NCBI RefSeq assembly: GCF_055900595.2
Contig: NZ_CM148325.1
Direction: 5' to 3' (one strand)
DNA: 64,000 nucleotides
Both the position numbers and the translations under genes were made by a program. Positions 1 to 12,021 of the stretch are shown one piece after another. Numbering within the stretch: the stretch's first letter is position 1; each line of letters starts with the position of its first letter. The notes below the pieces were generated by a model. That model saw nothing but the letters and a program-made list of their open reading frames with translations, had not been told where the DNA came from and ran no database searches.

Positions 1-241
1 CGGCGGTGGTTAACTCACCGCTTAAACAGAGCAGTAACACCTGTTCGCCTGTTGATGGCCGCCACCACGTCCGGGCATCACCGGCGCGTAGCGTCAGCCA
101 CGGTATCCAGTTGGTGGTCAGTTCACCAGTGTGAATGCGTACTCGATCGCCCTTCACCTCTTCAACGGTGCCGGTACGGATCAGGTTTTCAATGCGCCGG
201 TGCAGCTCGGCGAGGTTGGCTGGGTGGTTTGCGTCGCTCAT
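1..241 (-). CDS. Baseplate assembly protein V (gpV-like), N-terminal part; 3' end outside window
   Basis: Reverse-strand translation from ATG at 241: MSDANHPANLAELHRRIENLIRTGTVEEVKGDRVRIHTGELTTNWIPWLTLRAGDARTWWRPSTGEQVLLL, which resembles the P2 gpV N-terminus as recalled (IRTG, TWW-PS-GEQVL). Confidence 0.7.
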   Translation of the reverse strand, partial: MSDANHPANLAELHRRIENLIRTGTVEEVKGDRVRIHTGELTTNWIPWLTLRAGDARTWWRPSTGEQVLLLCLSGELTTA

Positions 242-305
242 GCCGGAATCATTGGGATTCGCGGGCGAAGAGGGAAGGGCTAAGGCTTGTAGGATAATGG
301 GCTAC

Positions 306-333
306 AAGTAAAACGCCCCTGAGTAGGGGCGTT
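306..333 (-). terminator. Hairpin plus T-tract downstream of hicB
   Basis: Stem aacgcccct/aggggcgtt with a 4-nt loop, followed on the - strand by TTTTAC. Confidence 0.45.
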
Positions 334-347
334 GAACGAAAAAGAGC

Positions 348-683
348 TTAACCGTGCGCAGCCTTCATCAGTGTATCGTTAATCCACTGGTTAACGCTTT
401 TACCGGAGACTTCTGCCGCAACGTTAATGGCAGAGTGAATTTCAGGTGGAATACGCAGGCTGATTTTTCCGCTGGCCGGACGCAACGGCTCCCGGCCCCG
501 TTCCTCGCAGTAAGCCAGATAGTCGTCTACCGCCTCTTCAAACGCTTTACGCAGATCGGCAACATTATCGGCATGAAAGCCAATGACATCCCGAATGCCT
601 GCAACGTGACCAACAATGCATTGATCTTCATCGCTGTATTCAATTTTTGCGGCATAGCCTCTATATGTCATGGTATTCATCAT
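348..683 (-). CDS. hicB: HicB-family antitoxin (RNase H-like fold plus C-terminal RHH)
   Basis: 111 aa. C-terminal ribbon-helix-helix-like segment ISLRIPPEIHSAINVAAEVSGKSVNQWINDTLMKA. 4-nt ATGA overlap with the upstream hicA. Confidence 0.75.
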   Translation of the reverse strand: MMNTMTYRGYAAKIEYSDEDQCIVGHVAGIRDVIGFHADNVADLRKAFEEAVDDYLAYCEERGREPLRPASGKISLRIPPEIHSAINVAAEVSGKSVNQWINDTLMKAAHG

Positions 684-943
684 GGTGTTACCCCTACAGC
701 TTCAAGGAATGTTCTGGCATCGCGAACCTGATAGGCTTTCGCTTCTTTTTCCGGGTGTGGACGATGAAATGAAGCCACAACCTGATTAATTTCAAACCTG
801 ACGCGGGAACCGTTTCCTTCCGTAGCAATAGCCCCCAAAGCAATAAATAAGGCTTCTATTTTTCGCCATTCCAGCGTGACAGGTGTTGGCGTAGAAAAAA
901 CAGCTTGTAAGGTTTTTTTATGTTTGGCGCTTAACGTATTCAT
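680..943 (-). CDS. hicA: HicA-family mRNA interferase toxin
   Basis: 87 aa. Pattern GNGSRVRF...HRPHPEKE...VR..RTFLEAVGV fits the HicA signature (GSH-x-F, HxP, KE, lysine/arginine-rich C-terminus). Immediately upstream of hicB. Confidence 0.7.
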   Translation of the reverse strand: MNTLSAKHKKTLQAVFSTPTPVTLEWRKIEALFIALGAIATEGNGSRVRFEINQVVASFHRPHPEKEAKAYQVRDARTFLEAVGVTP

Positions 944-992
944 ACAGGGTATTTTCCATAAGTTATTTTATTCTTCCGCCAAGATATAATGA

Positions 993-1013
993 TGATATCA
1001 TTTTTTGATATCA
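993..1013. promoter_or_regulatory. Putative hicAB operator: two copies of the palindrome TGATATCA
   Basis: TGATATCA at 993-1000 and 1006-1013, in the AT-rich region just upstream of the hicA start and downstream of the S stop. Confidence 0.45.
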
Positions 1014-1015
1014 TT

Positions 1016-1462
1016 TCAAGTCAGGAAGTGAACGATTAGCGCCTCTATCTTTCGCACATCCTCCGCCGAAACCCCCAGCAACTGCCTTTGTGCGTAATCC
1101 ACCTCCAACCCGTAGCGATTTACCCGATCGCGCAGGCCATACTGATGAACGGCGGCCATATGTCGAACGCTGCTGAGAAACGAAATGGTTACACCCTGCC
1201 CATCGCCTTTTCCTTTCATATAGCGTGCGGTACGCAGCTTACGGAACATCTGGCGGCGGATCTTTCCTTTTTTACTGCGTAGCTGGGGCTTACGGGGGGC
1301 GAACGATGAGCCGTCCGGGTTTTTCTGCGCGGCTATCCGCTGGCTTTGTGACTGGCGCAGGCTGCGGGCGATTTCCCGCGCCAGTTGGGTTCGGCTTGCC
1401 GGGGAGAGCTTTACGAGCAGGCCATCGGCCCAGCGGTGGAGTTGTTGCAGGTCTTCGCTCAT
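1016..1462 (-). CDS. Tail completion / virion morphogenesis protein (gpS-like)
   Basis: 148 aa, about the size of P2 gpS, in the expected position after R. Confidence 0.7.
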   Translation of the reverse strand: MSEDLQQLHRWADGLLVKLSPASRTQLAREIARSLRQSQSQRIAAQKNPDGSSFAPRKPQLRSKKGKIRRQMFRKLRTARYMKGKGDGQGVTISFLSSVRHMAAVHQYGLRDRVNRYGLEVDYAQRQLLGVSAEDVRKIEALIVHFLT

Positions 1463-1920
1463 CAGGTGCTCACAATCGTTTCACCGCGACAGGCGATTTC
1501 CCAGCCGTTGTAACCGCTTTCTGGCTGCTGGTCGTTACAGTGCTTTGCTTCCAGACCACCGTCGCGCTGGCGAACAATGACGCGCTCGGTCAGCGCCAGT
1601 TTGATGCTGATATCGTAGCTTTGATGGTCGATGGCTTCGGCCTCAAACTGAAACGCCTGCTCGCGCAGGTCGCTATTGGCGAAGGCTTCCTGCTGGTGAA
1701 GCGACATCCAGCCGACCAGTAGCACCATCAGCGTATCGGGATCGGCGGCGTAGTCGGTGATCAACAGTTCCAGCGTGTACTGGTATTCAAAACTGGTGCT
1801 GCGCCCTGCGGTGGCGACGATCCGGCCCTTATTGATAAAGATCCGCAGCGCGTCCGGGTTCTGCTGTAGATGCGGGACGCTGGCGGCCAGCAGTTCACGG
1901 ATGAGCTGCGCTTTGTGCAT
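1462..1920 (-). CDS. Tail completion protein (gpR-like)
   Basis: 152 aa, in the expected position between the lysis genes and S; start/stop overlap with S. Confidence 0.7.
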   Translation of the reverse strand: MHKAQLIRELLAASVPHLQQNPDALRIFINKGRIVATAGRSTSFEYQYTLELLITDYAADPDTLMVLLVGWMSLHQQEAFANSDLREQAFQFEAEAIDHQSYDISIKLALTERVIVRQRDGGLEAKHCNDQQPESGYNGWEIACRGETIVST

Positions 1921-2170
1921 CGATACGCTCCTGACAGCTAATCGTCATATCCACCTGCGCAGCGCACTGGTGCCACGCGTTTTCAGTGTCCAGCAGTGCG
2001 CGGCTTAAATCTTCATTACTCTGCGGTTGCAGCGCCGGAAGCTGGCAGGGCCTCAGTTTCGGGCAATTGACGGTAAGCCGCACTGCCGGTAATGGTGGTG
2101 TGCTGGTGCAGGCGGATAATATCAGCGGGCAAAGCAGTATCAGCCCATTCACGAAGCTGTTGATTTTCAC
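1895..2170 (-). CDS. o-spanin (Rz1/LysC-like outer-membrane lipoprotein), starting inside the i-spanin gene in another frame
   Basis: 91 aa with signal peptide and lipobox (LILLCPLILSAC-TS). Starts within the 2016-2465 ORF and runs past its end into R. Confidence 0.6.
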   Translation of the reverse strand: MKINSFVNGLILLCPLILSACTSTPPLPAVRLTVNCPKLRPCQLPALQPQSNEDLSRALLDTENAWHQCAAQVDMTISCQERIDAQSAAHP

Positions 2171-2465
2171 GTTTCAGTTTCTCCAGTTGCTGATTGCGCT
2201 GCCGTAGCTGGTCATGGGCGGCGGCGGTTTGCTGTTGCAGCGTCAGGTATGCCTGCTGGTCGGCGTCGGCCTGTTGCTGGAGTTCGTCCAGTTCCCGCAC
2301 TTTTGTCATCAGGGATTCGGTCAGGCTGGCAATCTGAGTGTCGGCCAGCCTGATGTGCTGCTGCTGTTCAATAAGCTGTTCCTGCTGCGTCATACGCTGC
2401 CAGTTAGTCCAGAGCAGCATCACACCGAGCAACAGCAGCGGCGCGGCTTTCATCCAGCCCATCAT
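2016..2465 (-). CDS. i-spanin (Rz/LysB-like)
   Basis: 149 aa. N-terminal TM segment, then a Q/E-rich coiled-coil-like region. Overlaps the endolysin stop. Confidence 0.65.
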   Translation of the reverse strand: MMGWMKAAPLLLLGVMLLWTNWQRMTQQEQLIEQQQHIRLADTQIASLTESLMTKVRELDELQQQADADQQAYLTLQQQTAAAHDQLRQRNQQLEKLKRENQQLREWADTALPADIIRLHQHTTITGSAAYRQLPETEALPASGAATAE

Positions 2466-3052
2466 GCTGCCGCCTTACTGAATTTTTCGAAGGCGACCGC
2501 CAGCTTAGTATCGTACTGGTTGCGTTTGTACTGTGGCCCGTTGTAGCGGCGGGCGAACTCTGGCCAGTTCTGTACCTTCATCGCGTCGTGGATCTTCGAA
2601 TTGGCCTCAACAAAGCGCACGAAGGTATCAAGCTGCATCTGCTCGCTGTCGTTCATCTGTTTTTCAAAGTCGGCAGCAGAGGTGTAGCCCAGCGTTTTCC
2701 AGTGAAAGCCCATAATCTGGAACAGTCCCCAGCTTGCGCTCTCAATGGCGGCGGCGCTGTGGATCTGTTTCGCCAGATTCAGACGGTAGTGCTCACGGCT
2801 TCCGCCCTGATAGCCGCCTGCGCTCTTGTTCACCAGATCCGGGTAATTCTGCGCCAGCCGGTCGGCGTCCAGTCCGTGGCTTTTTAACTGGCGGTACATG
2901 ACGTGGCGTTCAAACAGAATAGCTGGGCGGCCATCGGGCAAGAAGCCGTGAGATCGGGCTTCAACCTCCTGCACTGCCTGTAATGTCGCCAGCGGGATGC
3001 CCAGATACAGCGCGGCGGCCTGCTGCTGATCATGAGTGAGTGTACGAGTCAT
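2462..3052 (-). CDS. Endolysin, N-acetylmuramidase family (DUF3380-type)
   Basis: 196 aa containing the GLFQIMGFHW motif typical of this muramidase family. Lies in the lysis cassette. Confidence 0.7.
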   Translation of the reverse strand: MTRTLTHDQQQAAALYLGIPLATLQAVQEVEARSHGFLPDGRPAILFERHVMYRQLKSHGLDADRLAQNYPDLVNKSAGGYQGGSREHYRLNLAKQIHSAAAIESASWGLFQIMGFHWKTLGYTSAADFEKQMNDSEQMQLDTFVRFVEANSKIHDAMKVQNWPEFARRYNGPQYKRNQYDTKLAVAFEKFSKAAA

Positions 3053-3344
3053 GGCGTGGCTCCTTCGGGTGGTGACGTAAGGGTTTAATCAGGCTGGCGA
3101 CGTTGCCGCGTGCGGCAGTCAGGCAAATCAGCAGCACGATGTTGATGGCGGTTTCGGCGATAAACACGTAGCGGTACAGGCTGAAACAAATCAGTACCGC
3201 CACTGATGCGGTGCAGCACATCAGCAGCCACGCCAGCCAGCTATACAGCGGGCGATAGGTAGTACCGTGAACGCGGCGATAGAGGAACAGACGGATGGTA
3301 ATCAGCAGGCAAATAATGGCGTTAAGGCTCAGGATTAGTTTCAT
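3030..3344 (-). CDS. Small membrane protein of the lysis cassette (holin/antiholin-like)
   Basis: 104 aa, strongly hydrophobic with about 3 predicted TM segments. ATGA overlap with the upstream holin-like gene. Confidence 0.5.
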   Translation of the reverse strand: MKLILSLNAIICLLITIRLFLYRRVHGTTYRPLYSWLAWLLMCCTASVAVLICFSLYRYVFIAETAINIVLLICLTAARGNVASLIKPLRHHPKEPRHDSYTHS

Positions 3345-3718
3345 TTGCGTCCCCTTAAAAAGTCGAGCAGTTGACCGGGGTTATCCAGTTGTCGGATGGC
3401 CCATAGCAGCGCCTTGACGGTAAGCGCCGATGAGAGCAGCGCCCCGATACCGGGGGAGACTTTTTCCGTCAGATGTTGCGGCAGATATCCGGCGACCAGT
3501 GCAGTGAACAGGTCGGCGGTCAGCAGGCCGATCACAAACGCCACGCAGAAGAAAATGATGCGCAGGAACAGGCCGATCTCTTTTTGCGAAATCACCAGCA
3601 GCAGCGCGCCACACAATGCGCCGAGCACCACCGGAGCCTGTAGCGTCGGGAACAGCGTGGCAATGGAGAATGCGCTTACGGAAGCGGCGACGACGGTGCC
3701 GGTTACGGGTTCGTTCAT
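3341..3718 (-). CDS. Holin-like membrane protein
   Basis: About 125 aa taking the ATG at 3718 (MNEPVTG...); the track's longer form needs a GTG start. Multiple TM helices. Located directly after X. Confidence 0.55.
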   Translation of the reverse strand: MNEPVTGTVVAASVSAFSIATLFPTLQAPVVLGALCGALLLVISQKEIGLFLRIIFFCVAFVIGLLTADLFTALVAGYLPQHLTEKVSPGIGALLSSALTVKALLWAIRQLDNPGQLLDFLRGRK

Positions 3719-3720
3719 AG

Positions 3721-3924
3721 TCAGTCCCACAGGTTGATTCGTTGACGTTCGGCGGCGGGAGCCTGTTCAGGTACGTTCACCGCCGTACCGTGCGGCAGGC
3801 GCAGCGGCAGTTCGCATAGGCGCGGGTTGTCGCGGTAAAGCCGTTCGACAATCCCGGCAGTGCGCCCGAAGGTGCGCCAGCAGAGCTGGTCGAGCGTTTC
3901 GTTTTGCAGGCTATAGACAATCAT
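3721..3924 (-). CDS. Tail protein X (gpX-like)
   Basis: 67 aa, the same length as P2 gpX. Sequence MIVYSLQNETLDQLCWRTFGRT.... Confidence 0.7.
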   Translation of the reverse strand: MIVYSLQNETLDQLCWRTFGRTAGIVERLYRDNPRLCELPLRLPHGTAVNVPEQAPAAERQRINLWD

Positions 3925-4038
3925 GGTGTTTCCCGCGCGGCGTCAGGTGATGCGGGGATGGTGGCACAGGGGCGGGAAGTGAAGGGAAGGCTTCCGCTTG
4001 TAACTGAGGACAGTACAAGCGGAAGCGATTGGCGAGGG

Positions 4039-4359
4039 CTATGCCTCGTCGCTGTCGGTATTGATGATTTTCAGTTCAGCGGACTTCTGGAGCTGGATCA
4101 GCGCCGGGATCAGAAGCGCGGTAGCCGACAGGCCGTGCCCTAACTGGCACAGGCTTTCAGCGGAGAATTCCAGCACGTTGCTGTCGGCAAAGGAGACGAA
4201 GGTTTTACCCAGAAAATGCAGGCCGTGACATAGCCCGGCATAGCACTCTTCGCTGCTGTTGGCCAGTTGCAGAGTATCGTCGGCGTTCAGGTGTGAAATA
4301 TCCAGCTTGCGGATCGCGTCCGCCAGTTCAGAGGACAGAATATTGGTTTCAGGCACCAT
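4039..4359 (-). CDS. Hypothetical protein, 106 aa, acidic C-terminus
   Basis: Strong SD (GGAGGT, 5-nt spacer) before the ATG at 4359. No family recognised by eye. Last of three small genes in the L-X island. Confidence 0.55.
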   Translation of the reverse strand: MVPETNILSSELADAIRKLDISHLNADDTLQLANSSEECYAGLCHGLHFLGKTFVSFADSNVLEFSAESLCQLGHGLSATALLIPALIQLQKSAELKIINTDSDEA

Positions 4360-4525
4360 GGCGCACCTCCAGCGGTTTGCAGGAGACGAACACCAGCGGG
4401 AAACCCGCCAGCAGGCCGCGAGCCTCTGTCTCTGTTGTCGCCAGTACGGATACCAGACGCAGTGGCTGGATCTCGCGCAGCAGGCGGTTGGAACGGGCGT
4501 TCAGGAAGGTGTAGAGCTTAGGCAT
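4352..4525 (-). CDS. Hypothetical small protein, 57 aa (not in ORF track because <60 aa)
   Basis: Hand translation: MPKLYTFLNARSNRLLREIQPLRLVSVLATTETEARGLLAGFPLVFVSCKPLEVRHGA. SD GGAGGT 4 nt before the ATG at 4525. Overlaps both neighbours by 8 nt. Confidence 0.5.
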
Positions 4526-4694
4526 GGTTCACCTCCTCTACCGGGGTGCTACGTGGGGGATTGAACGACTGAGCGATAACGCTCAGTGCCTGCTTACCTT
4601 CGGGATGCGCAAGACGGTAGTAAGTTAACAGGACTTGCTCCTGTGGGCTGAGATCGTCCCACGTGAGAGTTGTGTTACTATTAGCGGTAGCCAT
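4518..4694 (-). CDS. Hypothetical small protein, 58 aa
   Basis: ATG at 4694 preceded by GAGGT (MATANSNTTLTWDDLSPQEQVLLTYYRLAHPEGK...). The track's longer form starts at 4757 without a good SD. Confidence 0.5.
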   Translation of the reverse strand: MATANSNTTLTWDDLSPQEQVLLTYYRLAHPEGKQALSVIAQSFNPPRSTPVEEVNHA

Positions 4695-4836
4695 AGCATT
4701 ACCTCGATTAATGTTGTGGTTAGATGCCTTGGCAGTGTTCGCGCACTGTCGGGGCATTGTTATTTATGTCATGTGATAGTAATGTGTCATCACACAGTAC
4801 TACATTAACCTGAGTGTGATTTAGGTGTCAATACAC
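4695..4836. promoter_or_regulatory. AT-rich divergent promoter/operator region between the two island operons
   Basis: Inverted repeat TGTGAT...ATCACA (tgtcatgtgatagtaatgtgtcatcacacag) and further GTGTGA copies between the start codons at 4694 (-) and 4837 (+). Confidence 0.45.
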
Positions 4837-5004
4837 ATGAATGAAAGAAGAGGAAATCCTCCGTTTCAGTTTCGACTCGATCCTGAACTGAGAAACGCGA
4901 TGGAAGAAGCTAAAAAGCAAGATGGTGATGAATCACTGGCTGCGTGGATTAAGCGAATTATCAGAAAAGAGCTTCAGTCACGGGGTATAGAACCAAAAGA
5001 TTAG
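4837..5004 (+). CDS. Arc/MetJ-type ribbon-helix-helix DNA-binding protein, 55 aa
   Basis: Hand translation: MNERRGNPPFQFRLDPELRNAMEEAKKQDGDESLAAWIKRIIRKELQSRGIEPKD, matching the RHH pattern F-x-L-R-L-x-x-E-L...SLN/A.I..RL. First gene of the + operon. Confidence 0.55.
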   Translation: MNERRGNPPFQFRLDPELRNAMEEAKKQDGDESLAAWIKRIIRKELQSRGIEPKD

Positions 5005-5050
5005 CAGATAGGTATATACTTTGAATAAAGAGTATTAGAGGTAAAAAATA

Positions 5051-5239
5051 ATGGCGAAGAATAGCAGTCCTGCCAGCCGATACGGTATCAAGGTCGTAAA
5101 AAGAGACAGTATGAGCGGGCAGTTTGTACCCGTCGAAATGAAGCTGGACGGCCCGGAAGGTGAGCGTGTGATTAAAAAGTCGGCAGAGCGTATTTATGCC
5201 AGACACAACAAAGTCATTAAGGCGCTGGCTAACCGATGA
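5051..5239 (+). CDS. Putative antitoxin partner of the Doc toxin (family not recognised; not Phd/YefM-like)
   Basis: 62 aa. SD AGAGGT upstream. Stop overlaps the Doc start (ATGA at 5236-5239), a typical toxin-antitoxin coupling. Confidence 0.5.
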   Translation: MAKNSSPASRYGIKVVKRDSMSGQFVPVEMKLDGPEGERVIKKSAERIYARHNKVIKALANR

Positions 5240-5613
5240 TTGATGCACATTTGGTGATTGGAATTCACGACTTTATTCTTGCTCATGAGCCGGGATTGGT
5301 TGGTTATCAGGATGCTGGCCGGGTCGAGGCAACACTGGCACGGGTGGATAACCGTATTCTGTATGAGCAGATGAATGATATTTTCCAGATCGCCGCATCT
5401 TATGCGGTTGCCATCGCCAGAGGGCACGTTTTTGCTGATGCCAACAAGCGAACGGCACTGGTGACGGCGTTGACATACCTTGATATGCAGGGTGTGAACC
5501 TCAAGCGAACACAAAAGCTGGAAGATATTATGGTGGATGTGGCTGAGGGAACGCTAAATCTGGATGATTTAGCCGATATTTTCTATACCCTTAGTGATGT
5601 AAATGCTTCCTGA
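5236..5613 (+). CDS. doc: Doc (death-on-curing) family toxin, Fic fold
   Basis: 125 aa. Conserved Doc motif HVFADANKRTA (HxFx[DN][AG]NKR). Size and layout parallel P1 Doc. Confidence 0.8.
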   Translation: MIDAHLVIGIHDFILAHEPGLVGYQDAGRVEATLARVDNRILYEQMNDIFQIAASYAVAIARGHVFADANKRTALVTALTYLDMQGVNLKRTQKLEDIMVDVAEGTLNLDDLADIFYTLSDVNAS

Positions 5614-5618
5614 CGTTA

Positions 5619-5643
5619 CAGCCCGACAGATCGGGCTGTTTTT
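5619..5643. terminator. Bidirectional hairpin terminator between the convergent Doc gene and the 78-aa gene
   Basis: cagcccga-caga-tcgggctg followed by TTTTT on + strand; A-run on the other side. Confidence 0.6.
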
Positions 5644-5645
5644 AA

Positions 5646-5882
5646 TTATGCCGCCTCAATACCCGCGTTGGTTAACATATAGTGGCCCCAGTGGTTTTTT
5701 TTCAGGTAACCGGCCAGTTCCATCTGCGTCACAATAAATTCAGCGTTAACCATTTCTATACCTGCGTAGTCGGCCAGATCGCGCAGCGGCCATGTGCTGC
5801 GAACGCCGACGCTAACTATGGTGTCTCTGATGCGGCGAGCGGTATCGGTCATTGGGCGGGTTCTGGCTGCCTGAATAGTCAT
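5646..5882 (-). CDS. Hypothetical protein, 78 aa, possible winged-helix DNA-binding protein
   Basis: ATG at 5882 with SD AGGGGA. Sequence ...LRDLADYAGIEMVNAEFIVTQMELAGYLKK... Lies directly after L on the late strand. Confidence 0.45.
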   Translation of the reverse strand: MTIQAARTRPMTDTARRIRDTIVSVGVRSTWPLRDLADYAGIEMVNAEFIVTQMELAGYLKKNHWGHYMLTNAGIEAA

Positions 5883-5998
5883 GGTATTTTCCCCTGTAGA
5901 TTCTTTCTGTTAGGTCAGACACTAACTCTGGTGGGGAAGGGGCATCCAGCGTTCAGATGAGGCGATACGGTGATGCGCATCGCATATCCGTACTCTTT

Positions 5999-6466
5999 TT
6001 ATACCAGAACAAACGTACTGCGCGGCTTGCCCAGAATATCCCGCACGGCGAAGCGGGCATCGCGCGCCAGATCGTCGGCGGTGCTTTCCTTCTGTTCCGC
6101 CAGTTTGCTGCCGTGGGCGGTGGCATCAAAGTTACGGTAGCGTTCCAGCAGGTTTGCGTGCGTCAGGCTGTACACCGCGTAGCGGTAGCGGTGCAGGTTA
6201 ACGCTTTCGCCGTCCAGCCGTTCGGTAGTAGTTTCCACAATGCCGGTTGTGCCACGGCTTTCCTGCTCCAGCCGCCATTCCCGCAGGTCGTCGTTCACGC
6301 TGGCCAGCGCAATCAGCAGCGCCTCGCGCAGCCGTTCGTTGGTGATGGTGCTGTCCAGCCGTTGGGTTGCACGCAGATGTTGCGTATCGATATTGGGAAA
6401 GAAAGGGTGGTTGCTGATAACCAGCCCCGGCAGACTGGCGGCGGGGGCAACCTGAATAAAGCTCAT
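5999..6466 (-). CDS. Head completion/stabilisation protein (gpL-like)
   Basis: 155 aa from the ATG at 6466 (MSFIQVAPAASLPG...) with SD GGAGA. Position after small terminase M. The track's longer form begins at an upstream alternative start. Confidence 0.7.
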   Translation of the reverse strand: MSFIQVAPAASLPGLVISNHPFFPNIDTQHLRATQRLDSTITNERLREALLIALASVNDDLREWRLEQESRGTTGIVETTTERLDGESVNLHRYRYAVYSLTHANLLERYRNFDATAHGSKLAEQKESTADDLARDARFAVRDILGKPRSTFVLV

Positions 6467-6551
6467 TATATTCTCCCTGTTCGGCGGTGGACGGCGGGCG
6501 TTGCAGTGGTAAAACCACGCGCGGCCAGCCGTGCCGCCGGTCGTGAGGGTC

Positions 6552-7205
6552 TCACTCGGTAGGCTGACTGTTGCGAATTTGTCGCTCCAGTTGCTCAATC
6601 AGCTTTTTCACGCCGACGTTCTCATCCAGTTGTAGCGCGCGCTGGAACTGCGCCAGCGCCTCCTGCGGCTGGCTTTCGCTGTGTGCCAGCCCCAATGCCT
6701 TGTGCAGGCGAGCGCGAACCTGATCCGGCATGTCCTGATCGGCTAACAGCCCGGCAAAGGCCAGCAGGCTGTCCAGCGCCGCAAAGGTACCGGCGGTAAG
6801 CTGTTTCAGGGTGGTGTCGGCGACCTCTTCAGCCACCATGCAGGCGGTCTGCCGCTGGTACTGATCCGGCGTTACCCAGCCGTGTTTCAGGGCGTGTTCC
6901 GCCATGGGGTAGGCAGCGGGAAAGTCGCCGGTATCCAGCGTCCAGAGCAGCACCGTCATAAACACATCGTCCTGCTGTTGGCTGTCGGCAGCCAGAACGC
7001 CGCTTACCCATGGCTGGTAATCGGGCAGCAGTTCACCCTTAACCTCGATTTTGCGTTCAATGGACTGGATCGCTTTCAGGCGGCGTTTATCGGTTGCCAG
7101 CTTTGCCAGCATCAGTTCATAGCCGCTGGCGTAGGTCTGATTTTCCTGTTGATTTGCGGCCTGCGCCTGATAGCGCAGCAGGTGGCGGCGGGCAGGCGTC
7201 ATCAT
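6552..7205 (-). CDS. Terminase small/endonuclease subunit (gpM-like)
   Basis: 217 aa, in the P2 late-operon position between N and L. Confidence 0.65.
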   Translation of the reverse strand: MMTPARRHLLRYQAQAANQQENQTYASGYELMLAKLATDKRRLKAIQSIERKIEVKGELLPDYQPWVSGVLAADSQQQDDVFMTVLLWTLDTGDFPAAYPMAEHALKHGWVTPDQYQRQTACMVAEEVADTTLKQLTAGTFAALDSLLAFAGLLADQDMPDQVRARLHKALGLAHSESQPQEALAQFQRALQLDENVGVKKLIEQLERQIRNSQPTE

Positions 7206-8221
7206 GCGTCTTTATCCTCAAACTTGATGTTTTCAAACAGGCAACCGCAGCCGAAGTCTTCCACCACAAAGGCATCGTTGGAAGACTCGAAGTTCTCTAC
7301 CCGGTCACGTTTGGGGTTATCAATAATGGCGCGGCGGCGGGTGCCTTTCTGGACATAGATAGACAGGTTACTGAAGGCGGTGACCAGAATGGTGTTGTGC
7401 GGGAAACCCGGCACGCGCACGGCAGGGCGACTGCCGATGGTTTTCTGGCTGACCAGAATCTGCCCCGCCAGTTTTTCGCTGTTCTCATTGTGCTGGTTGA
7501 GGATCGGGAAGTATTTGTCGTGCAGGACGCCACGGCCACAAATGGCGACCAGATCTGCGCCGTCGACATGCCATTCGTCAATCAGGTTTTCTTCGCCGTC
7601 ATTGACCATGGCGTCCAGATTCTCATAGTCGCCGCCTTTGCCAATGATGATTTTGCCGGAACCTTCCACACCTTCGTTCATGACGCGTTCCGGGGCGTGA
7701 TCGCGATACTGCTGCAGCCAGCCTTTGTTAACGTCCTGCAGAAGGGGGTAACGCTGGAAGTCGGTCTGGGCTGCAACGAGGATACCGTTGAAGCCAATCA
7801 GGATGCGGTCTAATCCCTGTCGCCGGGTGATGCTGTCGCGCACGCGGATCTGAAAATCTGGGTGGGCGGCCCATGCGTCCAGTTTGGCGTATTTCAGCGC
7901 GGTATCGTAGTTGGTTTTTTCGCAGCGGTAGCGGTTAGTCGTCATTGACGTGGGGTCGACGGGTTCACGTTCACGCTGACTGGTATCGGTACGACTGGCC
8001 GTGGGGCGATCAATGCCGATACCGACTTTTTCACCTTCCTGATCCACCACTTCATGGACGTTGATTTCGGTCAGGAATTCTACGGACGCCTGAATTTTGG
8101 TTTCCAGCGTCTGCTGTACGGAAGGTTCTACCGTGAATTCGACGGCGGCGCTCTGGACACCGGACAGCCCGGCGACGGTTTCAACGTAAGCGTTGTATTT
8201 TAAGCGGGTTTCGTTACGCAT
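7202..8221 (-). CDS. Major capsid protein (gpN-like, P2 family)
   Basis: 339 aa, close to P2 gpN in size, in the position after scaffold O. Confidence 0.75.
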   Translation of the reverse strand: MRNETRLKYNAYVETVAGLSGVQSAAVEFTVEPSVQQTLETKIQASVEFLTEINVHEVVDQEGEKVGIGIDRPTASRTDTSQREREPVDPTSMTTNRYRCEKTNYDTALKYAKLDAWAAHPDFQIRVRDSITRRQGLDRILIGFNGILVAAQTDFQRYPLLQDVNKGWLQQYRDHAPERVMNEGVEGSGKIIIGKGGDYENLDAMVNDGEENLIDEWHVDGADLVAICGRGVLHDKYFPILNQHNENSEKLAGQILVSQKTIGSRPAVRVPGFPHNTILVTAFSNLSIYVQKGTRRRAIIDNPKRDRVENFESSNDAFVVEDFGCGCLFENIKFEDKDA

Positions 8222-8231
8222 CGGGGGTTCC

Positions 8232-9059
8232 TTAACAGTCGGTTTTCAGGTCGGTGTTGCCACCGGTGGCAGGCTGGCGCGGCGGTGTGGCCGGTTGTTT
8301 TGCAAGCTGAGTTTTCAGCGTGGAATAATCGGTCTGTAGCTGCTGATGCTGCGTTTGCAGCTCAGACAGCTCAGCGCGAATTTGGTCGACCTGTTCGCTA
8401 CAGAACGTCGCTACTTCCTCCACCGCCAGATGCACGTCGTCCCGTTGCTGGTCGTCGTGGTTCTGCTTTTTACTTAACAGCGCCTTGATGCGGGTAAACA
8501 GAGATTCGCCGCTGCTTTCCTCCACTTCTTCAAACTCCAGTTCAATCTCTTCTGCCACGCTGAAAATGTTCTCCGGCGAGCGTTTACGCGCCGCCAGCGG
8601 GTTGCTTTGCGCGCTGGCGCAGAAGGAGAGCATTTCGGTGCCGAGGCTGGCCGGATCGTCGGTGACCGCCAGCCCGACCAGATAGGCTTTGCCCGTGTCG
8701 GCAAATTTCGGATTGACTTCCACCGAGGTATAAACCTTCTGCCCTTTGCGGTTCATTTCGACCAGCGAATCCGTTGGGGCCAGACGCGCCAGCAGCGCCA
8801 GTTTGCCTTTCAGGGGACCGTCTTCGGCGATCTCTTCTTTCTTCACCATCGCCACGTCGCCGTAGCGCTGGAACGGGCCGTCCGGCAGGATGCCTTTCAG
8901 GTGCTCCAGATTAATGCGCGCGCCGTACACTTTTGGGCTGTATGTATCGGCCATTTGCTCGATCCACTGGCGTTCAATCGTGCGCTTGTCGCAGGTTGCG
9001 CCTTCTACGGCGATACGCACCCATTTAGAGAGCAGTTTTTTCTTTGGCTTTTTGTCCAT
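8232..9059 (-). CDS. Capsid scaffolding protein (gpO-like)
   Basis: 275 aa with an acidic/coiled-coil C-terminal half. First gene of the O-N-M-L operon, divergent from the terminase. Confidence 0.75.
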   Translation of the reverse strand: MDKKPKKKLLSKWVRIAVEGATCDKRTIERQWIEQMADTYSPKVYGARINLEHLKGILPDGPFQRYGDVAMVKKEEIAEDGPLKGKLALLARLAPTDSLVEMNRKGQKVYTSVEVNPKFADTGKAYLVGLAVTDDPASLGTEMLSFCASAQSNPLAARKRSPENIFSVAEEIELEFEEVEESSGESLFTRIKALLSKKQNHDDQQRDDVHLAVEEVATFCSEQVDQIRAELSELQTQHQQLQTDYSTLKTQLAKQPATPPRQPATGGNTDLKTDC

Positions 9060-9214
9060 AACGTTCAGTCCCGGCGTTGGCTAAATAAGCGAATGGTCGG
9101 GTAGTCCTCCGCTATCAGGCAACGGGCTTCGCTTGTAATCATCCGGGTTACAAGCGGCATTGCTACGCGCAGACAGCGGCTTGTTTACGCTGACGGCAGA
9201 AACGAGAGGACGTT
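9060..9214. promoter_or_regulatory. Divergent late promoter region (P-type and O-type promoters)
   Basis: 155-bp intergenic gap between the divergent terminase (+) and scaffold (-) genes, as in P2, where Ogr-activated late promoters sit. Confidence 0.4.
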
Positions 9215-10999
9215 ATGCCGCCAGACATCGAAAAACATCTGCTTGCCCTTCAGGACGAAGATCCACGCCGTAAAGCCCGCTATCTGTACTGGCAGGGTTT
9301 TCGCATTGCGCGGATCGCTGAACTATTGGGGGTGAAAGTTACCACGCTGCATAGCTGGAAGCGGCGCGATGGCTGGGACGAATCCGCCCCGCTGGAGCGG
9401 GTGACGGCGGTGACCGAAGCGCGGCTGATCCAGCTCACGGTGAAGGAAAATAAGGAGGGAAAGGATTTTAAGGAGATCGACCTGCTCTGGCGGCAGATGG
9501 AGCGCGGGGCAAGGGTTGAACGCTATCAGCAGGGGGGCAATGAGGTCGACCTGAACCCTGCTCTTGCGAAGCGTAACGCCGGGCCGCGCAGACAGCCGGA
9601 AACCAACCATATCAGCGAGGAGCAGGCGGAGAAGCTGAAACAGTTATTTCTGGACGGACTGTATCCGCACCAGAAACACTGGTACCGCGCCGGGCTGGAA
9701 CACCGTATCCGCGATATCAACAAGTCGCGCCAGATTGGGGCGACGATGTTCTTCGGGCGGGAAGGATTTATGGATGCGGTGGAGAGCGGGCGCAACCAGA
9801 TCTTTCTCTCGGCCTCCAAAGCGCAGGCGCACCAGTTCCGCCAGTACATTGTCGATTTTGCTCGTGAGGCGGATGTTGAGCTGAAGGGCGAAGTCATTCA
9901 CTTGCCGCATAATGATAGCCGGATGTATTTTCTCGGCACCAATGCCCGCACCGCCCAGACCTATCATGGCAACCTGTATCTGGATGAATACTTCTGGATA
10001 CACCGCTTTTTGGAACTGCGCCGTAACGCGGCGGGGATGGCCAGCCAGAAACGCTGGCGGCAGACCTACTTTTCCACACCGTCCAGCATTACCCACGAAG
10101 CCTATAAGTTCTGGACAGGGCAACTGTTCAACAAGGGCAGGCCGAAGAGCGAACAGATTCGACTGGATATCAGCCATCGGGCGCTGGCGGCGGGGCGTCT
10201 GTGTGAAGACGGCCAGTGGCGGCAAATCGTCACCGTTGAGGATGCCATCAATCAGGGTTATGACCTGTTCGACCTTGAGCAACTCAGGCTGGAGAACTCG
10301 CCGGAAGAGTTCGCCAACCTGTTTATGTGCCAGTTTATCGACGATACCGCATCGGTATTCCCACTAAGCATGTTGCAGGGTTGCATGGTCGATAGCTGGG
10401 AAGTCTGGGACGACTACAAGCCGTTTGCCCTGCGTCCGCTCGGCGAACGCTCGGTGTGGGTGGGGTACGATCCCGCATTAAGCGGTGACAGCGCCGGGTG
10501 CGTGATGGTCGCGCCGCCGGTCATTGAGGGCGGCAAGTTTCGGGTAATTGAAAAGCACCAGTGGCACGGGATGGACTTCGCGGCGCAGGCGGAAAATATC
10601 CGCAAAATTACCGAGCGCTATAACGTGACTTACATCGGTATTGACGTGACCGGCATCGGCCACGGCGTGCATCAACTGGTGAAACAGTTCTTCCCGGCAG
10701 TGCAGGCATTCTCTTATTCCCCAGAAGTGAAACAGCGTCTGGTGCTGAAAACGCTGGACGTTGTCCGTAAACGCCGACTGGAGTTTGACGCCGGATGGAC
10801 GGATCTGGCGCAGGCGTTTATGGCAATTCGCAAAACCCTGACTCCGTCCGGGCGTCAGGTGACCTTCGAGGCCAGCCGTTCGGAAGAAGTCTCCCACGCG
10901 GATCTGGCATGGGCGTGTATGCACGCCATTATCAATGAACCACTGGAAAGCTCCGGCGGCGCGAACAGCGGGCGGGGCTTAATTAAGGTGTACGGATGA
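9215..10999 (+). CDS. Terminase large (ATPase) subunit (gpP-like)
   Basis: 594 aa, similar to P2 gpP in size. N-terminal HTH-like region; Walker-A-like KSRQIGATMF. Confidence 0.75.
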   Translation: MPPDIEKHLLALQDEDPRRKARYLYWQGFRIARIAELLGVKVTTLHSWKRRDGWDESAPLERVTAVTEARLIQLTVKENKEGKDFKEIDLLWRQMERGARVERYQQGGNEVDLNPALAKRNAGPRRQPETNHISEEQAEKLKQLFLDGLYPHQKHWYRAGLEHRIRDINKSRQIGATMFFGREGFMDAVESGRNQIFLSASKAQAHQFRQYIVDFAREADVELKGEVIHLPHNDSRMYFLGTNARTAQTYHGNLYLDEYFWIHRFLELRRNAAGMASQKRWRQTYFSTPSSITHEAYKFWTGQLFNKGRPKSEQIRLDISHRALAAGRLCEDGQWRQIVTVEDAINQGYDLFDLEQLRLENSPEEFANLFMCQFIDDTASVFPLSMLQGCMVDSWEVWDDYKPFALRPLGERSVWVGYDPALSGDSAGCVMVAPPVIEGGKFRVIEKHQWHGMDFAAQAENIRKITERYNVTYIGIDVTGIGHGVHQLVKQFFPAVQAFSYSPEVKQRLVLKTLDVVRKRRLEFDAGWTDLAQAFMAIRKTLTPSGRQVTFEASRSEEVSHADLAWACMHAIINEPLESSGGANSGRGLIKVYG

Positions 11000-11976
11000 A
11001 TAACTCAATGGCTTTCACCTTCGGTGAACCTGAAGCCCTGCTGGACAGGCGGGAAATACTGAACTATCTGGAGTGCGTGGACTTTGGCAAATGGTATGCG
11101 CCGCCGGTGGATTTTAATTCGCTGGCGCTGTCGTTCCGCGCTTCGGCGCATCATACCAGCCCGATCTGCGTGAAGCGCAACGTGCTGGTTGGTACCTTCA
11201 TACCTCATCCGTTGTTGACCCGGCAGGCGTTCAGCCGCCTTGCGCTGGACTATCTGGTATTCGGCAATGCCTATCTGGAGCGGCAGGATAACCGGCTGGG
11301 CCAGCCGTTAACGCTGGTGCCTGCGCTGGCGAAGTATGTCCGGCGCGGCAAGGCGCTGGACAGCTATTTCTTTGTTCAGCCCGGTAAAGTGGATCATGAG
11401 TTTGCGTCGGGCAGTATCGGCCACCTGCTGGAGCCGGATATCAATCAGGAAATCTACGGCCTGTCGGAATACCTCTCTGCGCTGAACGCGGCATGGCTGG
11501 ATAACTCCGCCACGCTGTTTCGCCGTCGTTACTACAAGAACGGCAGTCATGCCGGTTTCATCCTCTACCTGAGCGACCCGGCCCACAACGAGGCGGATAT
11601 TGGGGCGTTACAGGAAGCGCTAGCGAACAGCCGTGGCCCCGGCAACTTCCGCAATCTGCTGATGTATCTGCCGAACGGCAAGCCAGACAGCGTAAAGGTT
11701 ATCCCGATTGGCGAGGTGGCGGCGAAAGATAACTTCTCCGATATCAAGAGTGTCAGCCGTGACGACCAGTTAGCTGCGCACCGGGTACCACCTGCGCTCA
11801 TGGGCGTGGTACCGAGTAACGCCGGTGGCTTTGGTGATGCCATCAAAGCGGCGAAGGTATTCAACTGCAATGAGATCGAGCCGCTACAGGAACGGTTCAA
11901 GGAGCTGAACGACTGGCTGGGGCTGGAGGTTATTCGCTTCAAAAAGTACCGCCTTGCCGACGACGATTCAGAGTAA
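10996..11976 (+). CDS. Portal vertex protein (gpQ-like)
   Basis: 326 aa, translationally coupled to the terminase (ATGA overlap); position as in P2 Q. Confidence 0.65.
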   Translation: MNNSMAFTFGEPEALLDRREILNYLECVDFGKWYAPPVDFNSLALSFRASAHHTSPICVKRNVLVGTFIPHPLLTRQAFSRLALDYLVFGNAYLERQDNRLGQPLTLVPALAKYVRRGKALDSYFFVQPGKVDHEFASGSIGHLLEPDINQEIYGLSEYLSALNAAWLDNSATLFRRRYYKNGSHAGFILYLSDPAHNEADIGALQEALANSRGPGNFRNLLMYLPNGKPDSVKVIPIGEVAAKDNFSDIKSVSRDDQLAAHRVPPALMGVVPSNAGGFGDAIKAAKVFNCNEIEPLQERFKELNDWLGLEVIRFKKYRLADDDSE

Positions 11977-12021
11977 CCCCACCAACGACCAGCTCACTAT
12001 CAGAGCCACCATGCGCCATTC

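What the first reader, a model, noticed from the sequence alone, without database searches (positions are those of the whole stretch)
4695..4836. Divergent promoter region with TGTGAT/ATCACA inverted repeats between the two island operons
The 142-bp AT-rich gap separates the - strand start at 4694 from the + strand RHH gene start at 4837. It contains TGTGAT...ATCACA inverted repeats and additional GTGTGA copies, which look like operator sites for the adjacent RHH protein. That would couple expression of the two operons.
Basis: inference. Interest (0 to 1): 0.45.

Follow-up and report, generated by a model that had tools for sequence, protein, structure and literature searches.

The report
Repressor-and-antisense-RNA switch in a prophage island
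The short gap between two small operons in a P2-like prophage island holds an unannotated antisense small RNA gene, two promoters that fire into each other, and palindromes that probably bind the small repressor next door; the same switch sits at the core of many phage satellites, so it is more than an ordinary promoter region.

Summary
However, the TGTGAT…ATCACA pair is not beyond chance, and its left arm is not conserved in relatives.

The conserved content, seen in about 60 distinct related loci, has three parts:
1. A ~77-nt cis-antisense RNA gene (4689-4765, + strand). It has an invariant -10 box, two covarying hairpins and a U-tail. It is complementary to the ribosome-binding site and start codon of the first minus-strand gene. 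Its best Rfam match is SymR, below threshold.
2. Two face-to-face promoters:
   - P_R: TTGTTA-17-TAATGT.
   - P_L: a perfect TTGACA-18-TAATGT. Its -35 overlaps the true GTG start (4825) of the ribbon-helix-helix (RHH) gene.
   - The predicted start sites lie about 3 bp apart.
3. A 14-bp palindrome, TGTGT-N4-ACACA (4783-4796), between the two -10 boxes, plus a second GTGTCA-NN-ACAC copy on the P_L -35.

The palindrome sequence changes together with the N-terminal β-strand of the RHH across at least five specificity classes. Window and L001 share their flanks but have swapped this centre as one cassette. That supports, but does not prove, that the RHH binds these sites.

The module also occurs in Gram-negative PICI satellites, including the model island EcCICFT073.

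This is a new variant of a P22-immI-like kind of switch. Interest 0.55.

The parts
4676..4681 (+). -10 box (TACTAT) of the antisense-RNA promoter P_as. It lies inside codons 5-7 of the first minus-strand gene.
   Evidence: T, A and the final T are invariant in 37 distinct loci, and the G at -14 is at least 90% conserved, even though the overlapping codons encode different amino acids in different loci. The -35 is weak and variable.
4689..4765 (+). Cis-antisense small RNA, about 77 nt. Stem-loop 1 spans 4689-4721, with the anti-Shine-Dalgarno CCUC in its 7-nt loop (4702-4708). The terminator hairpin spans 4723-4758, followed by the U-tract 4759-4765. The RNA is complementary to the SD and the AUG (4694-4692) of the first minus-strand gene.
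   Evidence: The best Rfam hit is symR, full length, 29.1 bits, E 0.0067. RNAalifold predicts 19 pairs, 10 with compensatory changes. 96.1% of cells are paired against 31-51% when partners are slid, and there are 57 double changes against 13.1±3.3 in shuffles. The covariance model finds it in 17 held-out loci plus EcCICFT073 at 47-91 bits, at the homologous position on the strand of the RHH gene, and only once in the window. The + strand folds at -38.5 kcal/mol (z -7.2) and the minus strand at -15.8 (z -1.1).
4757..4785 (+). P_R, the rightward promoter for the RHH operon: -35 TTGTTA (4757-4762), 17-nt spacer, -10 TAATGT (4780-4785). Predicted start about 4792.
   Evidence: It is the best + strand PWM hit (7.8). 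TTGnnn-17-TAATGT is the best + strand hit, at the same position, in about 48 of 59 distinct loci. Relatives with other RHH classes have a promoter of different sequence within a few bp of that position. The start site is inferred.
4783..4796 (.). O1, a palindrome TGTGT-CATC-ACACA lying between the two -10 boxes and covering both predicted start sites. Proposed main RHH operator.
   Evidence: The positions are 70-99% conserved in 59 loci, while the adjacent 4766-4777 is not. The same half-sites occur in a diverged Pasteurella context, and different 5+4+5 palindromes occur with different RHH β-strands. Binding was not tested.
4802..4831 (-). P_L, the leftward promoter: -35 TTGACA (4831..4826), 18-nt spacer, -10 TAATGT (4807..4802). 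Predicted start about 4795, giving a 101-nt leader that contains the antisense-RNA target.
   Evidence: PWM score 11.2, the best hit on the minus strand. A perfect TTGACA with a TAnnnT box 16-18 nt downstream is the best minus-strand hit in 54 of 59 distinct loci, including the other RHH classes examined.
4825..4836 (.). O2, a second GTGTCA-NN-ACAC copy that overlaps the P_L -35 and RHH codons 1-4. Proposed second RHH site.
   Evidence: One of only two matches in the 64 kb. It is part of the 24-nt direct repeat with O1. Caveat: its conservation is also explained by the -35 box and by coding.
4825..5004 (+). RHH gene, 59 aa, GTG start.
   Evidence: PHROG Arc-like 5.2e-6 and NCBIfam YlcI/YnfO 1e-4, below its cutoff. 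The AF2 model shows two helices, and the Foldseek PDB list is led by Arc and dominated by RHH proteins, though E is about 1. The GTG start is conserved in relatives.
4518..4694 (-). First gene of the leftward operon, 58 aa, no family match. Its SD (GAGG 4705..4702) and AUG are the antisense-RNA target.
   Evidence: ORF and RBS. No Pfam, NCBIfam or PHROG hit. Relative to L001 and L002 it is an insertion after codon 7 of the Icd-like gene.
4349..4525 (-). Icd-like small protein, 58 aa; second gene of the leftward operon.
   Evidence: NCBIfam NF033153 at 1.7e-5 (24.8 bits against a cutoff of 25); phrog_20855 at 5e-35.
4039..4359 (-). 106-aa protein of unknown function; third gene of the leftward operon.
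   Evidence: phrog_19484 at 4e-59. It travels with the module in other P2-like prophages.
5051..5613 (+). Cargo behind the RHH: a 62-aa putative antitoxin (5051-5239) and a Doc toxin (5236-5613).
   Evidence: Doc matches TIGR01550 at 3.7e-25 and PF02661. No convincing internal promoter lies between the RHH gene and this cargo. Other copies of the module carry RelB-YafQ or unrelated cargo here.
5618..5639 (+). Intrinsic terminator ending the rightward operon.
   Evidence: A 9-bp stem with 6 GC pairs followed by TTTTT.

Best explanation
The region is a compact three-layer genetic switch, not a simple divergent promoter.

1. A strong leftward promoter P_L (perfect -35, overlapping the RHH start codon) drives orf58, the Icd-like gene and orf106. 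A weaker rightward promoter P_R drives the RHH gene, the putative antitoxin and Doc. The two promoters face each other with predicted start sites about 3 bp apart, so occupancy of one excludes or interferes with the other.

2. The RHH protein, probably as a dimer of dimers, binds palindrome O1 between the two -10 boxes and the related site O2 on the P_L -35. This would shut P_L strongly and limit its own promoter.

3. A constitutively made ~77-nt antisense RNA starts a few bases inside the first leftward gene. It presents the anti-Shine-Dalgarno sequence in a hairpin loop and pairs with the P_L leader. This would block translation, and probably stability, of any leftward transcript that escapes repression.

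Shown here: the RNA's conserved structure and strand specificity; the positional conservation of the promoter boxes; and the co-variation of the palindromes with the RHH N-terminus.

Inferred: the transcription start sites; RHH binding; the direction and strength of regulation; and the action of the RNA on its target.
For: RNA:
- SymR-like Rfam hit.
- Invariant -10 box and covarying stems.
- The covariance model recovers the RNA in held-out Enterobacterales and Pasteurellaceae loci and in EcCICFT073, on the strand of the RHH gene.
- Strong fold asymmetry between the strands.

Promoters:
- P_L and P_R are the best PWM hits at fixed positions in most of the 59 loci. They keep roughly those positions, with different sequences, in the other RHH classes.

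RHH:
- Arc-like profile hit.
- The Foldseek PDB list is led by Arc and dominated by RHH proteins.

Operator link:
- GTGTCANNACAC occurs only twice in the 64 kb, both times here.
- O1 is conserved while its neighbours are not.
- Palindromes are class-specific: FQFRL with TGTGT-N4-ACACA; QYQMRL with ATGGT-N4-ACCAT; VVQLRL with GTACA-N4-TGTAC; IALRV/IAFRV with TGTCAnACA.
- Window and L001 share both flanks at 82-100% identity but differ across operators plus RHH residues 1-40, so these were swapped as one cassette.
- The first leftward gene differs among loci that share the class A RHH and operator. This argues against that gene product being the binder.
Against: - No experimental data, and no transcription start or binding data.
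- The RHH assignment rests on weak scores: no Pfam hit, NCBIfam below its cutoff, Foldseek E about 1, and no β-strand in the monomer model.
- The P_L score in the window alone (11.2) is only about the 95th percentile of shuffled sequence.
- P_R is weak (7.8), and its -10 box shares bases with O1, so the conservation of one cannot be separated from the other.
- O2 conservation can be explained by the -35 box plus coding.
- The specificity classes are few, and some (L001, L002) place the palindrome upstream of the -10 rather than downstream.
- In the P2 context, late transcription from the capsid operon probably reads through the island on the minus strand. P_L may therefore matter less here than in satellites.
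Confidence: 0.6

Rival explanations
1. This is a back-to-back divergent promoter region whose TGTGAT/ATCACA repeats are RHH operators. The hairpin is incidental and there is no RNA regulator.
For: The repeats exist, the RHH-like gene is adjacent, and autoregulated RHH operons are common (general knowledge).
Against: The TGTGAT left arm is not conserved and the pair is not beyond chance. The conserved promoter boxes are arranged face-to-face. The hairpin region shows strand-specific covariation, an invariant upstream -10 box and a U-tail.
Confidence: 0.1
2. The palindromes are bound by something other than the adjacent RHH: a helper-phage or host factor, an AlpA/Bro-type protein, or a product of the leftward operon. 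The RHH would then serve mainly the toxin-antitoxin cargo, for example as a third, regulatory component of the Doc module.
For: Binding is untested. The 62-aa putative antitoxin has no recognisable DNA-binding domain, so a separate regulator would make sense, as in three-component TA systems such as PaaR-PaaA-ParE (own knowledge).
Against: In the PICI-type satellite copies examined the RHH has no TA gene behind it. In Yersinia copies the cargo is RelB-YafQ, and RelB carries its own RHH. The palindromes track the RHH N-terminus, not the cargo or the first leftward gene.
Confidence: 0.15
3. The hairpin and T-run form only a structural element, not part of a functional small RNA. It could be an insulating terminator protecting P_R from stray + strand transcription, or a stabilising 5'-UTR structure of the leftward mRNA.
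For: No expression data. The -35 of P_as is weak and variable. The terminator's end overlaps the P_R -35, which is compatible with an insulator role.
Against: The invariant TAnnnT box with G at -14 sits about 8 nt upstream of the structured region, despite differing codons. The first hairpin puts the anti-SD in its loop and covaries. G-U pairs make the structure specific to the + strand, so it is not a feature of the minus-strand mRNA. The architecture matches SymR.
Confidence: 0.1

Closest known systems
Phage P22 immunity I region ('ant moron': mnt, arc, sar RNA, ant)
   Same: Both are morons inserted inside a late operon. Both have a small RHH repressor transcribed opposite to the operon it controls, closely overlapping opposing promoters, and a short cis-antisense RNA that pairs with a ribosome-binding site in the controlled operon (PMC2629481; details of Pant/Pmnt from own knowledge).
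   Different: There is no ant homologue and only one RHH gene. The RNA here targets the first gene and starts inside it, whereas sar arises between arc and ant. There is no sequence homology: no Rfam sar hit, and Arc appears only as a weak fold match. The controlled genes are Icd-like and unknown small proteins.
SymE-SymR of E. coli (type I-like TA; Rfam RF01809)
   Same: Both have a ~77-nt cis-encoded RNA antisense to the 5' end, SD and start codon of the target, with two hairpins and a similar terminator loop. The match covers the full length of the model (also L001 at 33.8 bits). SymR is described as cis-encoded to symE in PMC1891008.
   Different: The score is less than half of the gathering threshold (29 against 61). 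The target is not a SymE/AbrB-fold protein. There is no LexA box. PICI-type copies do not reach E<1 against symR. The system here is coupled to an RHH repressor and face-to-face promoters.
Phage P1/P7 immI (c4 RNA - icd - ant)
   Same: Both place an Icd-like small protein in an operon under antisense-RNA control. Some satellite copies of this switch additionally carry a genuine C4 RNA with its a1/b1 targets downstream (L049, 71.6 bits).
   Different: The window has no C4 match. The RNA here is cis-antisense rather than a processed trans-acting RNA from the same transcript. P1 immI has no RHH.
P2 Pe/Pc and 186 pR/pL developmental switches
   Same: Both use face-to-face promoters whose transcripts overlap, so that transcriptional interference and one small repressor set a bistable choice (own knowledge).
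   Different: Those start sites are 35-62 bp apart, against about 3 bp here. Their repressors are HTH proteins (C, Cox, CI, Apl). They have no antisense small RNA gene with its own terminator.
Regulatory region of Gram-negative PICIs (EcCICFT073; AlpA activator)
   Same: The same module is present in EcCICFT073: a YlcI/YnfO-type RHH divergent from an Icd-like gene at the head of the primase operon, with the small RNA between them. It is also present in hundreds of other int-alpA-primase elements.
   Different: The window copy is not in a PICI. It is a moron in the P2 hotspot downstream of gpL, with TA cargo. [quoted passage not shown] The papers searched do not mention the RHH or the small RNA.

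Membership tests
Ribbon-helix-helix (Arc/MetJ/CopG) DNA-binding proteins | Match to a curated RHH family profile at its own threshold | tested here: not met
   Pfam gives no RHH family. NCBIfam YlcI/YnfO scores 22.3 bits against a cutoff of 30. Only the uncurated PHROG 'Arc-like repressor' matches, at 5.2e-6. PGAP does name closely related copies 'YlcI/YnfO family protein'.
Ribbon-helix-helix (Arc/MetJ/CopG) DNA-binding proteins | Fold: an N-terminal β-strand followed by two helices in about 45 residues | tested here: inconclusive
   The AF2 monomer model has helices 20-33 and 38-52 with pLDDT about 90, but no DSSP strand, as expected without the dimer partner. The top Foldseek PDB hits are Arc, VapB, NikR, CopG, AmrZ and PutA, with TMq 0.5-0.64 but E about 1.
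Ribbon-helix-helix (Arc/MetJ/CopG) DNA-binding proteins | Dimer whose β-ribbon binds repeated or palindromic operator half-sites | not testable with these tools
   Only indirect evidence: 5+4+5 palindromes that change with β-strand residues and the cassette swap against L001.
SymR antitoxin RNA (Rfam RF01809) | Score at or above the Rfam gathering threshold (61 bits) | tested here: not met
   29.1 bits in the window and 33.8 bits in L001.
SymR antitoxin RNA (Rfam RF01809) | Cis-antisense to the SD and start codon of its target, with two hairpins and an intrinsic terminator | tested here: met
   The RNA 4689-4765 covers the complement of AUG 4694-4692 and has the anti-SD in its loop 4702-4708. 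Structure.
SymR antitoxin RNA (Rfam RF01809) | Target is a SymE (AbrB-fold) toxin | tested here: not met
   The target 58-aa protein matches no family. Targets in relatives are Icd-like, Ash-family or unknown proteins.
P22-type immunity I region | Antirepressor gene (ant) under Mnt/Arc/sar control | tested here: not met
   No Ant-like protein in 4039-5882. No Rfam sar match.
Phd-Doc type II toxin-antitoxin module | Doc/Fic toxin | tested here: met
   TIGR01550 at 3.7e-25 (88.5 bits against a cutoff of 38.65) and PF02661 at 2.6e-10.
Phd-Doc type II toxin-antitoxin module | Upstream overlapping antitoxin of the Phd/YefM family that also binds the operator | tested here: not met
   The 62-aa protein overlaps doc by 4 nt but has no Pfam or NCBIfam hit. 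Its role as antitoxin is inferred from position only.
Gram-negative PICI | int, alpA and a pri-rep replication module within a ~10-15 kb island | tested here: not met
   The window island (4039-5882) has none of these and lies inside P2-like late genes. Only the RHH/sRNA/Icd-like switch is shared with PICIs.

The most novel reading that the evidence does not exclude
The RHH plus the cis-antisense RNA may be the missing maintenance (repression) system of Gram-negative PICI satellites. It would play the role of Stl/Rpr in Gram-positive islands, holding the Icd-like/primase operon silent until a helper-phage signal lifts it. In that case P2-like phages have captured this ready-made switch to control toxic or defensive cargo (Doc, RelB-YafQ, Icd-like) in their hotspots. 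The RNA would also be a previously uncatalogued, widespread small-RNA family distantly related to SymR.
Probability: 0.25. Interest if true: 0.75.

Novelty: new variant of a known kind. Interest (0 to 1): 0.55.

Why it matters
1. It turns a hypothetical 59-aa gene and an empty-looking gap into a testable regulatory unit. That unit is present in 183 of 5,426 complete E. coli genomes at megablast level alone, and also in Pasteurellaceae.

2. It adds a well-supported small-RNA family that no Rfam 15 model matches at its gathering threshold.

3. The same unit sits at the head of the replication operon of EcCICFT073. This is the model Gram-negative PICI, for which the published work states that a global repressor has not been identified. 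A handful of standard experiments on an existing model system could therefore settle how these satellites stay silent.

4. It shows how defence or TA cargo in a P2 hotspot may be wired: a portable repressor/operator/antisense cassette whose specificity region is exchanged as a unit.

Tried and rejected
- Megablast of 3900-6100 against the phage collection found nothing.
- Only 3 complete E. coli genomes hold the island.
- The consensus promoter scanner found no promoter because it demands at least 4 of 6 matches in each hexamer. I replaced it with a PWM scan.
- Pfam gave nothing for the RHH, the putative antitoxin or the three leftward genes.
- PDB sequence searches with the single sequence and with a 32-sequence profile found nothing relevant.
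- My greedy longest-ORF clustering of neighbourhoods was uninformative, because antisense ORFs displaced the small genes. I replaced it with called genes from the look-up of encoding contigs.
- I considered that P_L might be a P2 late (Ogr-type) promoter. There is no TGT-N12-ACA dyad on the minus strand of 3900-6100, so I rejected this.
- I considered an internal promoter between the RHH gene and the antitoxin. The only hit is a dubious one whose -10 abuts the start codon.
- I considered the longer 79-aa ORF starting at 4757 for the first leftward gene. I rejected it because its extra codons lie in the covarying terminator hairpin, and relatives conserve the CAT at 4692-4694 with an SD.
- My first guess at the EcCICFT073 location landed on the icd prophage. 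The second guess was correct.
- Literature searches for YlcI/YnfO function found nothing useful.

Full report
**Context**

Window 1-12000 is the late region of a P2-like prophage, in reverse orientation. It runs S, R, lysC, lysB, muramidase, two holins, X (3721-3924), then L (5999-6598), M, N, O, then P and Q.

Between X and L lies about 2 kb of cargo:
- On the minus strand: a 106-aa gene (4039-4359), an Icd-like 58-aa gene (4349-4525) and a 58-aa gene with no match (4518-4694).
- On the plus strand: a small RHH-like gene, a 62-aa gene and a Doc toxin (5236-5613).
- On the minus strand again: a 78-aa gene (5646-5882).

A 2026 preprint reports a P2 defence hotspot downstream of GpL, which is this location (10.64898/2026.02.27.708500). 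The exact RHH protein is on record from E. coli draft genomes. Only 3 of 5,426 complete E. coli genomes carry the island.

**Checking the observation**

TGTGAT (4772, 4815), ATCACA (4789) and GTGTGA (4814) are present. Several points need correcting.
- TGTGAT-N11-ATCACA is matched or beaten by 19 of 100 shuffles.
- An alignment of 59 distinct relatives shows that its left arm lies in the least conserved part of the region.
- The AT-richness is confined to 4759-4836 (35% GC). The stretch 4695-4758 is 50% GC.
- The RHH gene starts at GTG 4825, not at ATG 4837. Most relatives have no in-frame ATG, and all keep a GTG or ATG at the homologous position, preceded by a purine-rich SD.

What does stand out statistically is GTGTCANNACAC. 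It occurs twice in the 64 kb, both times here (expected 0.10), and forms part of a 24-nt direct repeat.

**The left half of the gap is an RNA gene**

The terminator scan flagged a 16-pair hairpin followed by a T-run at 4723-4765 on the + strand. No + strand gene lies upstream of it.

Sequence and structure evidence:
- A permissive Rfam scan gave as its best hit a full-length match to SymR at 4689-4761 (+), at 29.1 bits and E 0.0067. This is well below the gathering score of 61.
- Aligning 37 distinct loci shows, in order:
  - an invariant TAnnnT box (window TACTAT 4676-4681) with a conserved G at -14;
  - the complement of the first leftward gene's start codon (CAT 4692-4694);
  - a stem-loop whose 7-nt loop holds the anti-Shine-Dalgarno CCUC;
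  - a GC-rich terminator stem and a U-tract.
- The codons overlapping the -10 box encode different amino acids in different loci. Coding constraint therefore does not explain its invariance.

Covariation and strand evidence:
- RNAalifold predicts 19 pairs, 10 of them with compensatory double changes.
- 96.1% of cells are paired, against 31-51% when partners are slid. There are 57 double changes against 13.1±3.3 in shuffles, with 0 of 500 shuffles reaching the observed value.
- Near-invariant or frequent G-U pairs make the structure specific to the + strand. Examples are 35 of 37 and 32 of 37 sequences at two terminal pairs, and CG 19/UG 17 in mid-stem.
- The window RNA folds at -38.5 kcal/mol (z -7.2). 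Its complement folds at -15.8 (z -1.1).
- A covariance model built from these sequences recovers the element in 17 loci not used to build it, at 47-91 bits. These include Pasteurella and Mannheimia. Every hit is at the homologous position on the strand of the RHH gene, and the window has only one copy.

I conclude that 4689-4765 very probably encodes a cis-antisense RNA. It is fully complementary to the leader, SD and AUG of the first leftward gene. It has SymR-like architecture but is not a member of that Rfam family.

**The right half holds two facing promoters**

A σ70 PWM scan gives these as the best hits in the window:
- Minus strand: TTGACA(4831..4826)-18-TAATGT(4807..4802), score 11.2.
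- Plus strand: TTGTTA(4757-4762)-17-TAATGT(4780-4785), score 7.8.

Neither score alone exceeds shuffled sequence convincingly. Position is what carries the argument. The perfect TTGACA with a TAnnnT box 16-18 nt away is the best minus-strand hit in 54 of 59 distinct loci. TTGnnn-17-TAATGT is the best plus-strand hit, at the same position, in about 48 of 59. In relatives with different RHH classes, both promoters keep nearly the same positions with different sequences. One example is L081: TTGATT-17-TACAAT and TTGACA-17-TATGAT.

The predicted start sites are about 4792 (rightward) and about 4795 (leftward). The promoters are therefore face-to-face and overlapping, not back-to-back. Each mRNA carries the other promoter in its leader. 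The P_L -35 overlaps the RHH start codon. The 101-nt P_L leader contains the whole antisense target.

**The RHH and its likely operators**

The protein has no Pfam hit. It matches the PHROG 'Arc-like repressor' at 5e-6 and NCBIfam YlcI/YnfO below its cutoff. PGAP names close relatives 'YlcI/YnfO family protein'.

An AF2 model built from a 32-sequence alignment shows two confident helices. The Foldseek PDB list is led by Arc and dominated by RHH proteins (VapB, NikR, CopG, AmrZ, PutA), with TM 0.5-0.64 but E about 1.

Exactly between the two -10 boxes lies TGTGT-CATC-ACACA (4783-4796). It is conserved at 70-99% per base, while the stretch just upstream is not. The half-site centres are about 9-10 bp apart, roughly one helical turn, which would suit a dimer of dimers (inference).

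Three comparisons link this palindrome to the RHH.
1. In Pasteurella the flanking DNA has diverged but the β-strand is still FQFRL, and the palindrome is TGTGT-ATGT-ACACA.
2. Relatives with other β-strands carry other palindromes at or next to the P_R -10, mostly of the same 5+4+5 design:
   - QYQMRL with ATGGT-CGTT-ACCAT, plus an inverted copy just before the start codon;
   - VVQLRL with GTACA-TTGG-TGTAC;
   - IALRV/IAFRV with TGTCAnACA.
3. Window and L001 are 82-100% identical on both flanks but 0-60% identical across 4500-4950. The right junction lies inside the RHH gene, near the conserved Trp codon. The operators and RHH residues 1-40 were therefore exchanged as one cassette.

Aligning to Arc by the invariant Arg places the variable residues at the positions that contact bases in Arc (own knowledge of Arc Q9/N11/R13).

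Loci sharing the class A RHH and operator have unrelated first leftward genes. This argues against that product being the binder.

The second site (4825-4836) may be a true operator. Its conservation is, however, also explained by the -35 box and by codons 1-4.

**Where else the module occurs**

- The RHH family is abundant. There were 115 confirmed viral-contig loci, of which 80 were kept, and one variant alone is indexed in 1,154 blocks.
- Its commonest home is a ~10-kb island with this layout: int, alpA and a Bro-N gene on one strand; the RHH alone on the other; then Icd-like, DUF4222 and a D5-type primase. This is the Gram-negative PICI layout.
- The model island EcCICFT073 has it too. A YlcI/YnfO gene (C_RS30120) lies divergent from an Icd-like gene (C_RS30125) at the head of the primase operon. 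The small RNA is between them (63.2 bits), along with its own repeats, GGTGTGGCCCAC ×2.
[quoted passage not shown] It, the EcCIMP1 paper and the helper-embedded-PICI paper do not mention this RHH or RNA in the text I searched.
- In other P2-like prophages the same module sits between the tail-fibre-assembly and sheath genes, with RelB-YafQ behind the RHH. In L002 the cargo differs again.
- The RHH is therefore the switch's own regulator. It is not a dedicated part of the Doc module.

**Mechanism proposed**

- P_L is strong and would express small, probably harmful products (Icd-like). In satellites it would express the replication operon.
- The RHH, made from weak P_R, occupies O1 and O2. This would silence P_L, relieve interference on P_R at low occupancy, and limit itself at high occupancy.
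- The antisense RNA mops up leaky P_L transcripts by occluding the SD and AUG.
- Because antitoxin and Doc lack a convincing promoter of their own, they would be co-expressed with the RHH.
- No strong minus-strand terminator was found in the island. P2 late transcription can therefore probably read through to X and the lysis genes, as discussed for the P22 ant moron (PMC2629481).
- All regulatory directions here are inference.

**Comparison and verdict**

The closest functional analogue is P22 immI: RHH repressors plus the sar antisense RNA, in a moron inside a late operon. The closest RNA analogue is SymR. The Icd link recalls P1 immI, and one satellite copy indeed carries a real C4 RNA downstream. 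Membership of each of these families fails on at least one defining feature.

The region is best described as a new variant of a known kind of switch. Its value lies mainly in the unannotated RNA family and in the link to PICI regulation.

Noticed in passing
window 348-943 (-): A HicB (348-683) / HicA (680-943) toxin-antitoxin pair lies between tail gene S and the baseplate genes. It is a second TA moron in the same P2-like prophage.
   Followed up: partly
L104 25473-26052 (NC_004431.1 1380473-1381052): The model Gram-negative PICI EcCICFT073 carries the same switch. It has a YlcI/YnfO RHH (C_RS30120) divergent from an Icd-like gene (C_RS30125), the small RNA at L104 25854-25773 (63.2 bits), and its own repeats GGTGTGGCCCAC ×2 flanked by CCTTGA/TCAAGG.
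   Followed up: partly
L049 2925-3128 (-): A satellite copy of the leftward operon contains a bona fide C4 antisense RNA (RF01695, 71.6 bits) and its a1/b1 target element (45.7 bits). This P1-immI-like layer lies downstream of the RHH/sRNA switch. The window has none.
   Followed up: no
L092-L096 about 4355-5800: The same 106-aa / Icd-like | RHH module sits in other P2-like prophages between the tail-fibre-assembly and tail-sheath genes. There a RelB-YafQ/ParE pair follows the RHH instead of the Doc pair.
   Followed up: partly
window 4518-4694 versus L001 3449-3655 and L002 3450-3656: The window's first leftward gene is an insertion of about 170 bp after codon 7 (MATANSN) of what is a single 68-aa Icd-like gene in L001 and L002. 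This splits it into two 58-aa genes. The inserted protein has no family match.
   Followed up: partly
window about 4945 (inside the RHH gene): There is a mosaic junction. Downstream of the Trp codon, window and L001 are 90-100% identical. Upstream they are 40-60% identical. Recombination therefore occurs within the RHH gene, between its specificity half and its conserved C-terminal helix.
   Followed up: yes
window 3925-4038 (-): The gap between the 106-aa gene and tail gene X contains a 9-bp-stem hairpin (CCGCTTGTA…TACAAGCGG). It has no σ70 match and no TGT-N12-ACA late-promoter match. Its role is unknown.
   Followed up: no
E. coli complete genomes: 32 of 192 megablast places for the satellite version of the module are on plasmids of 60-125 kb. 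The switch is therefore not confined to chromosomal islands.
   Followed up: no
L009 6669-6733 and L081 6086-6151 (-): Rfam int-alpA RNA (RF02996, 50-58 bits) lies about 3 kb from the RHH in two satellite loci. This is consistent with the int-alpA zone of PICI-type elements.
   Followed up: no
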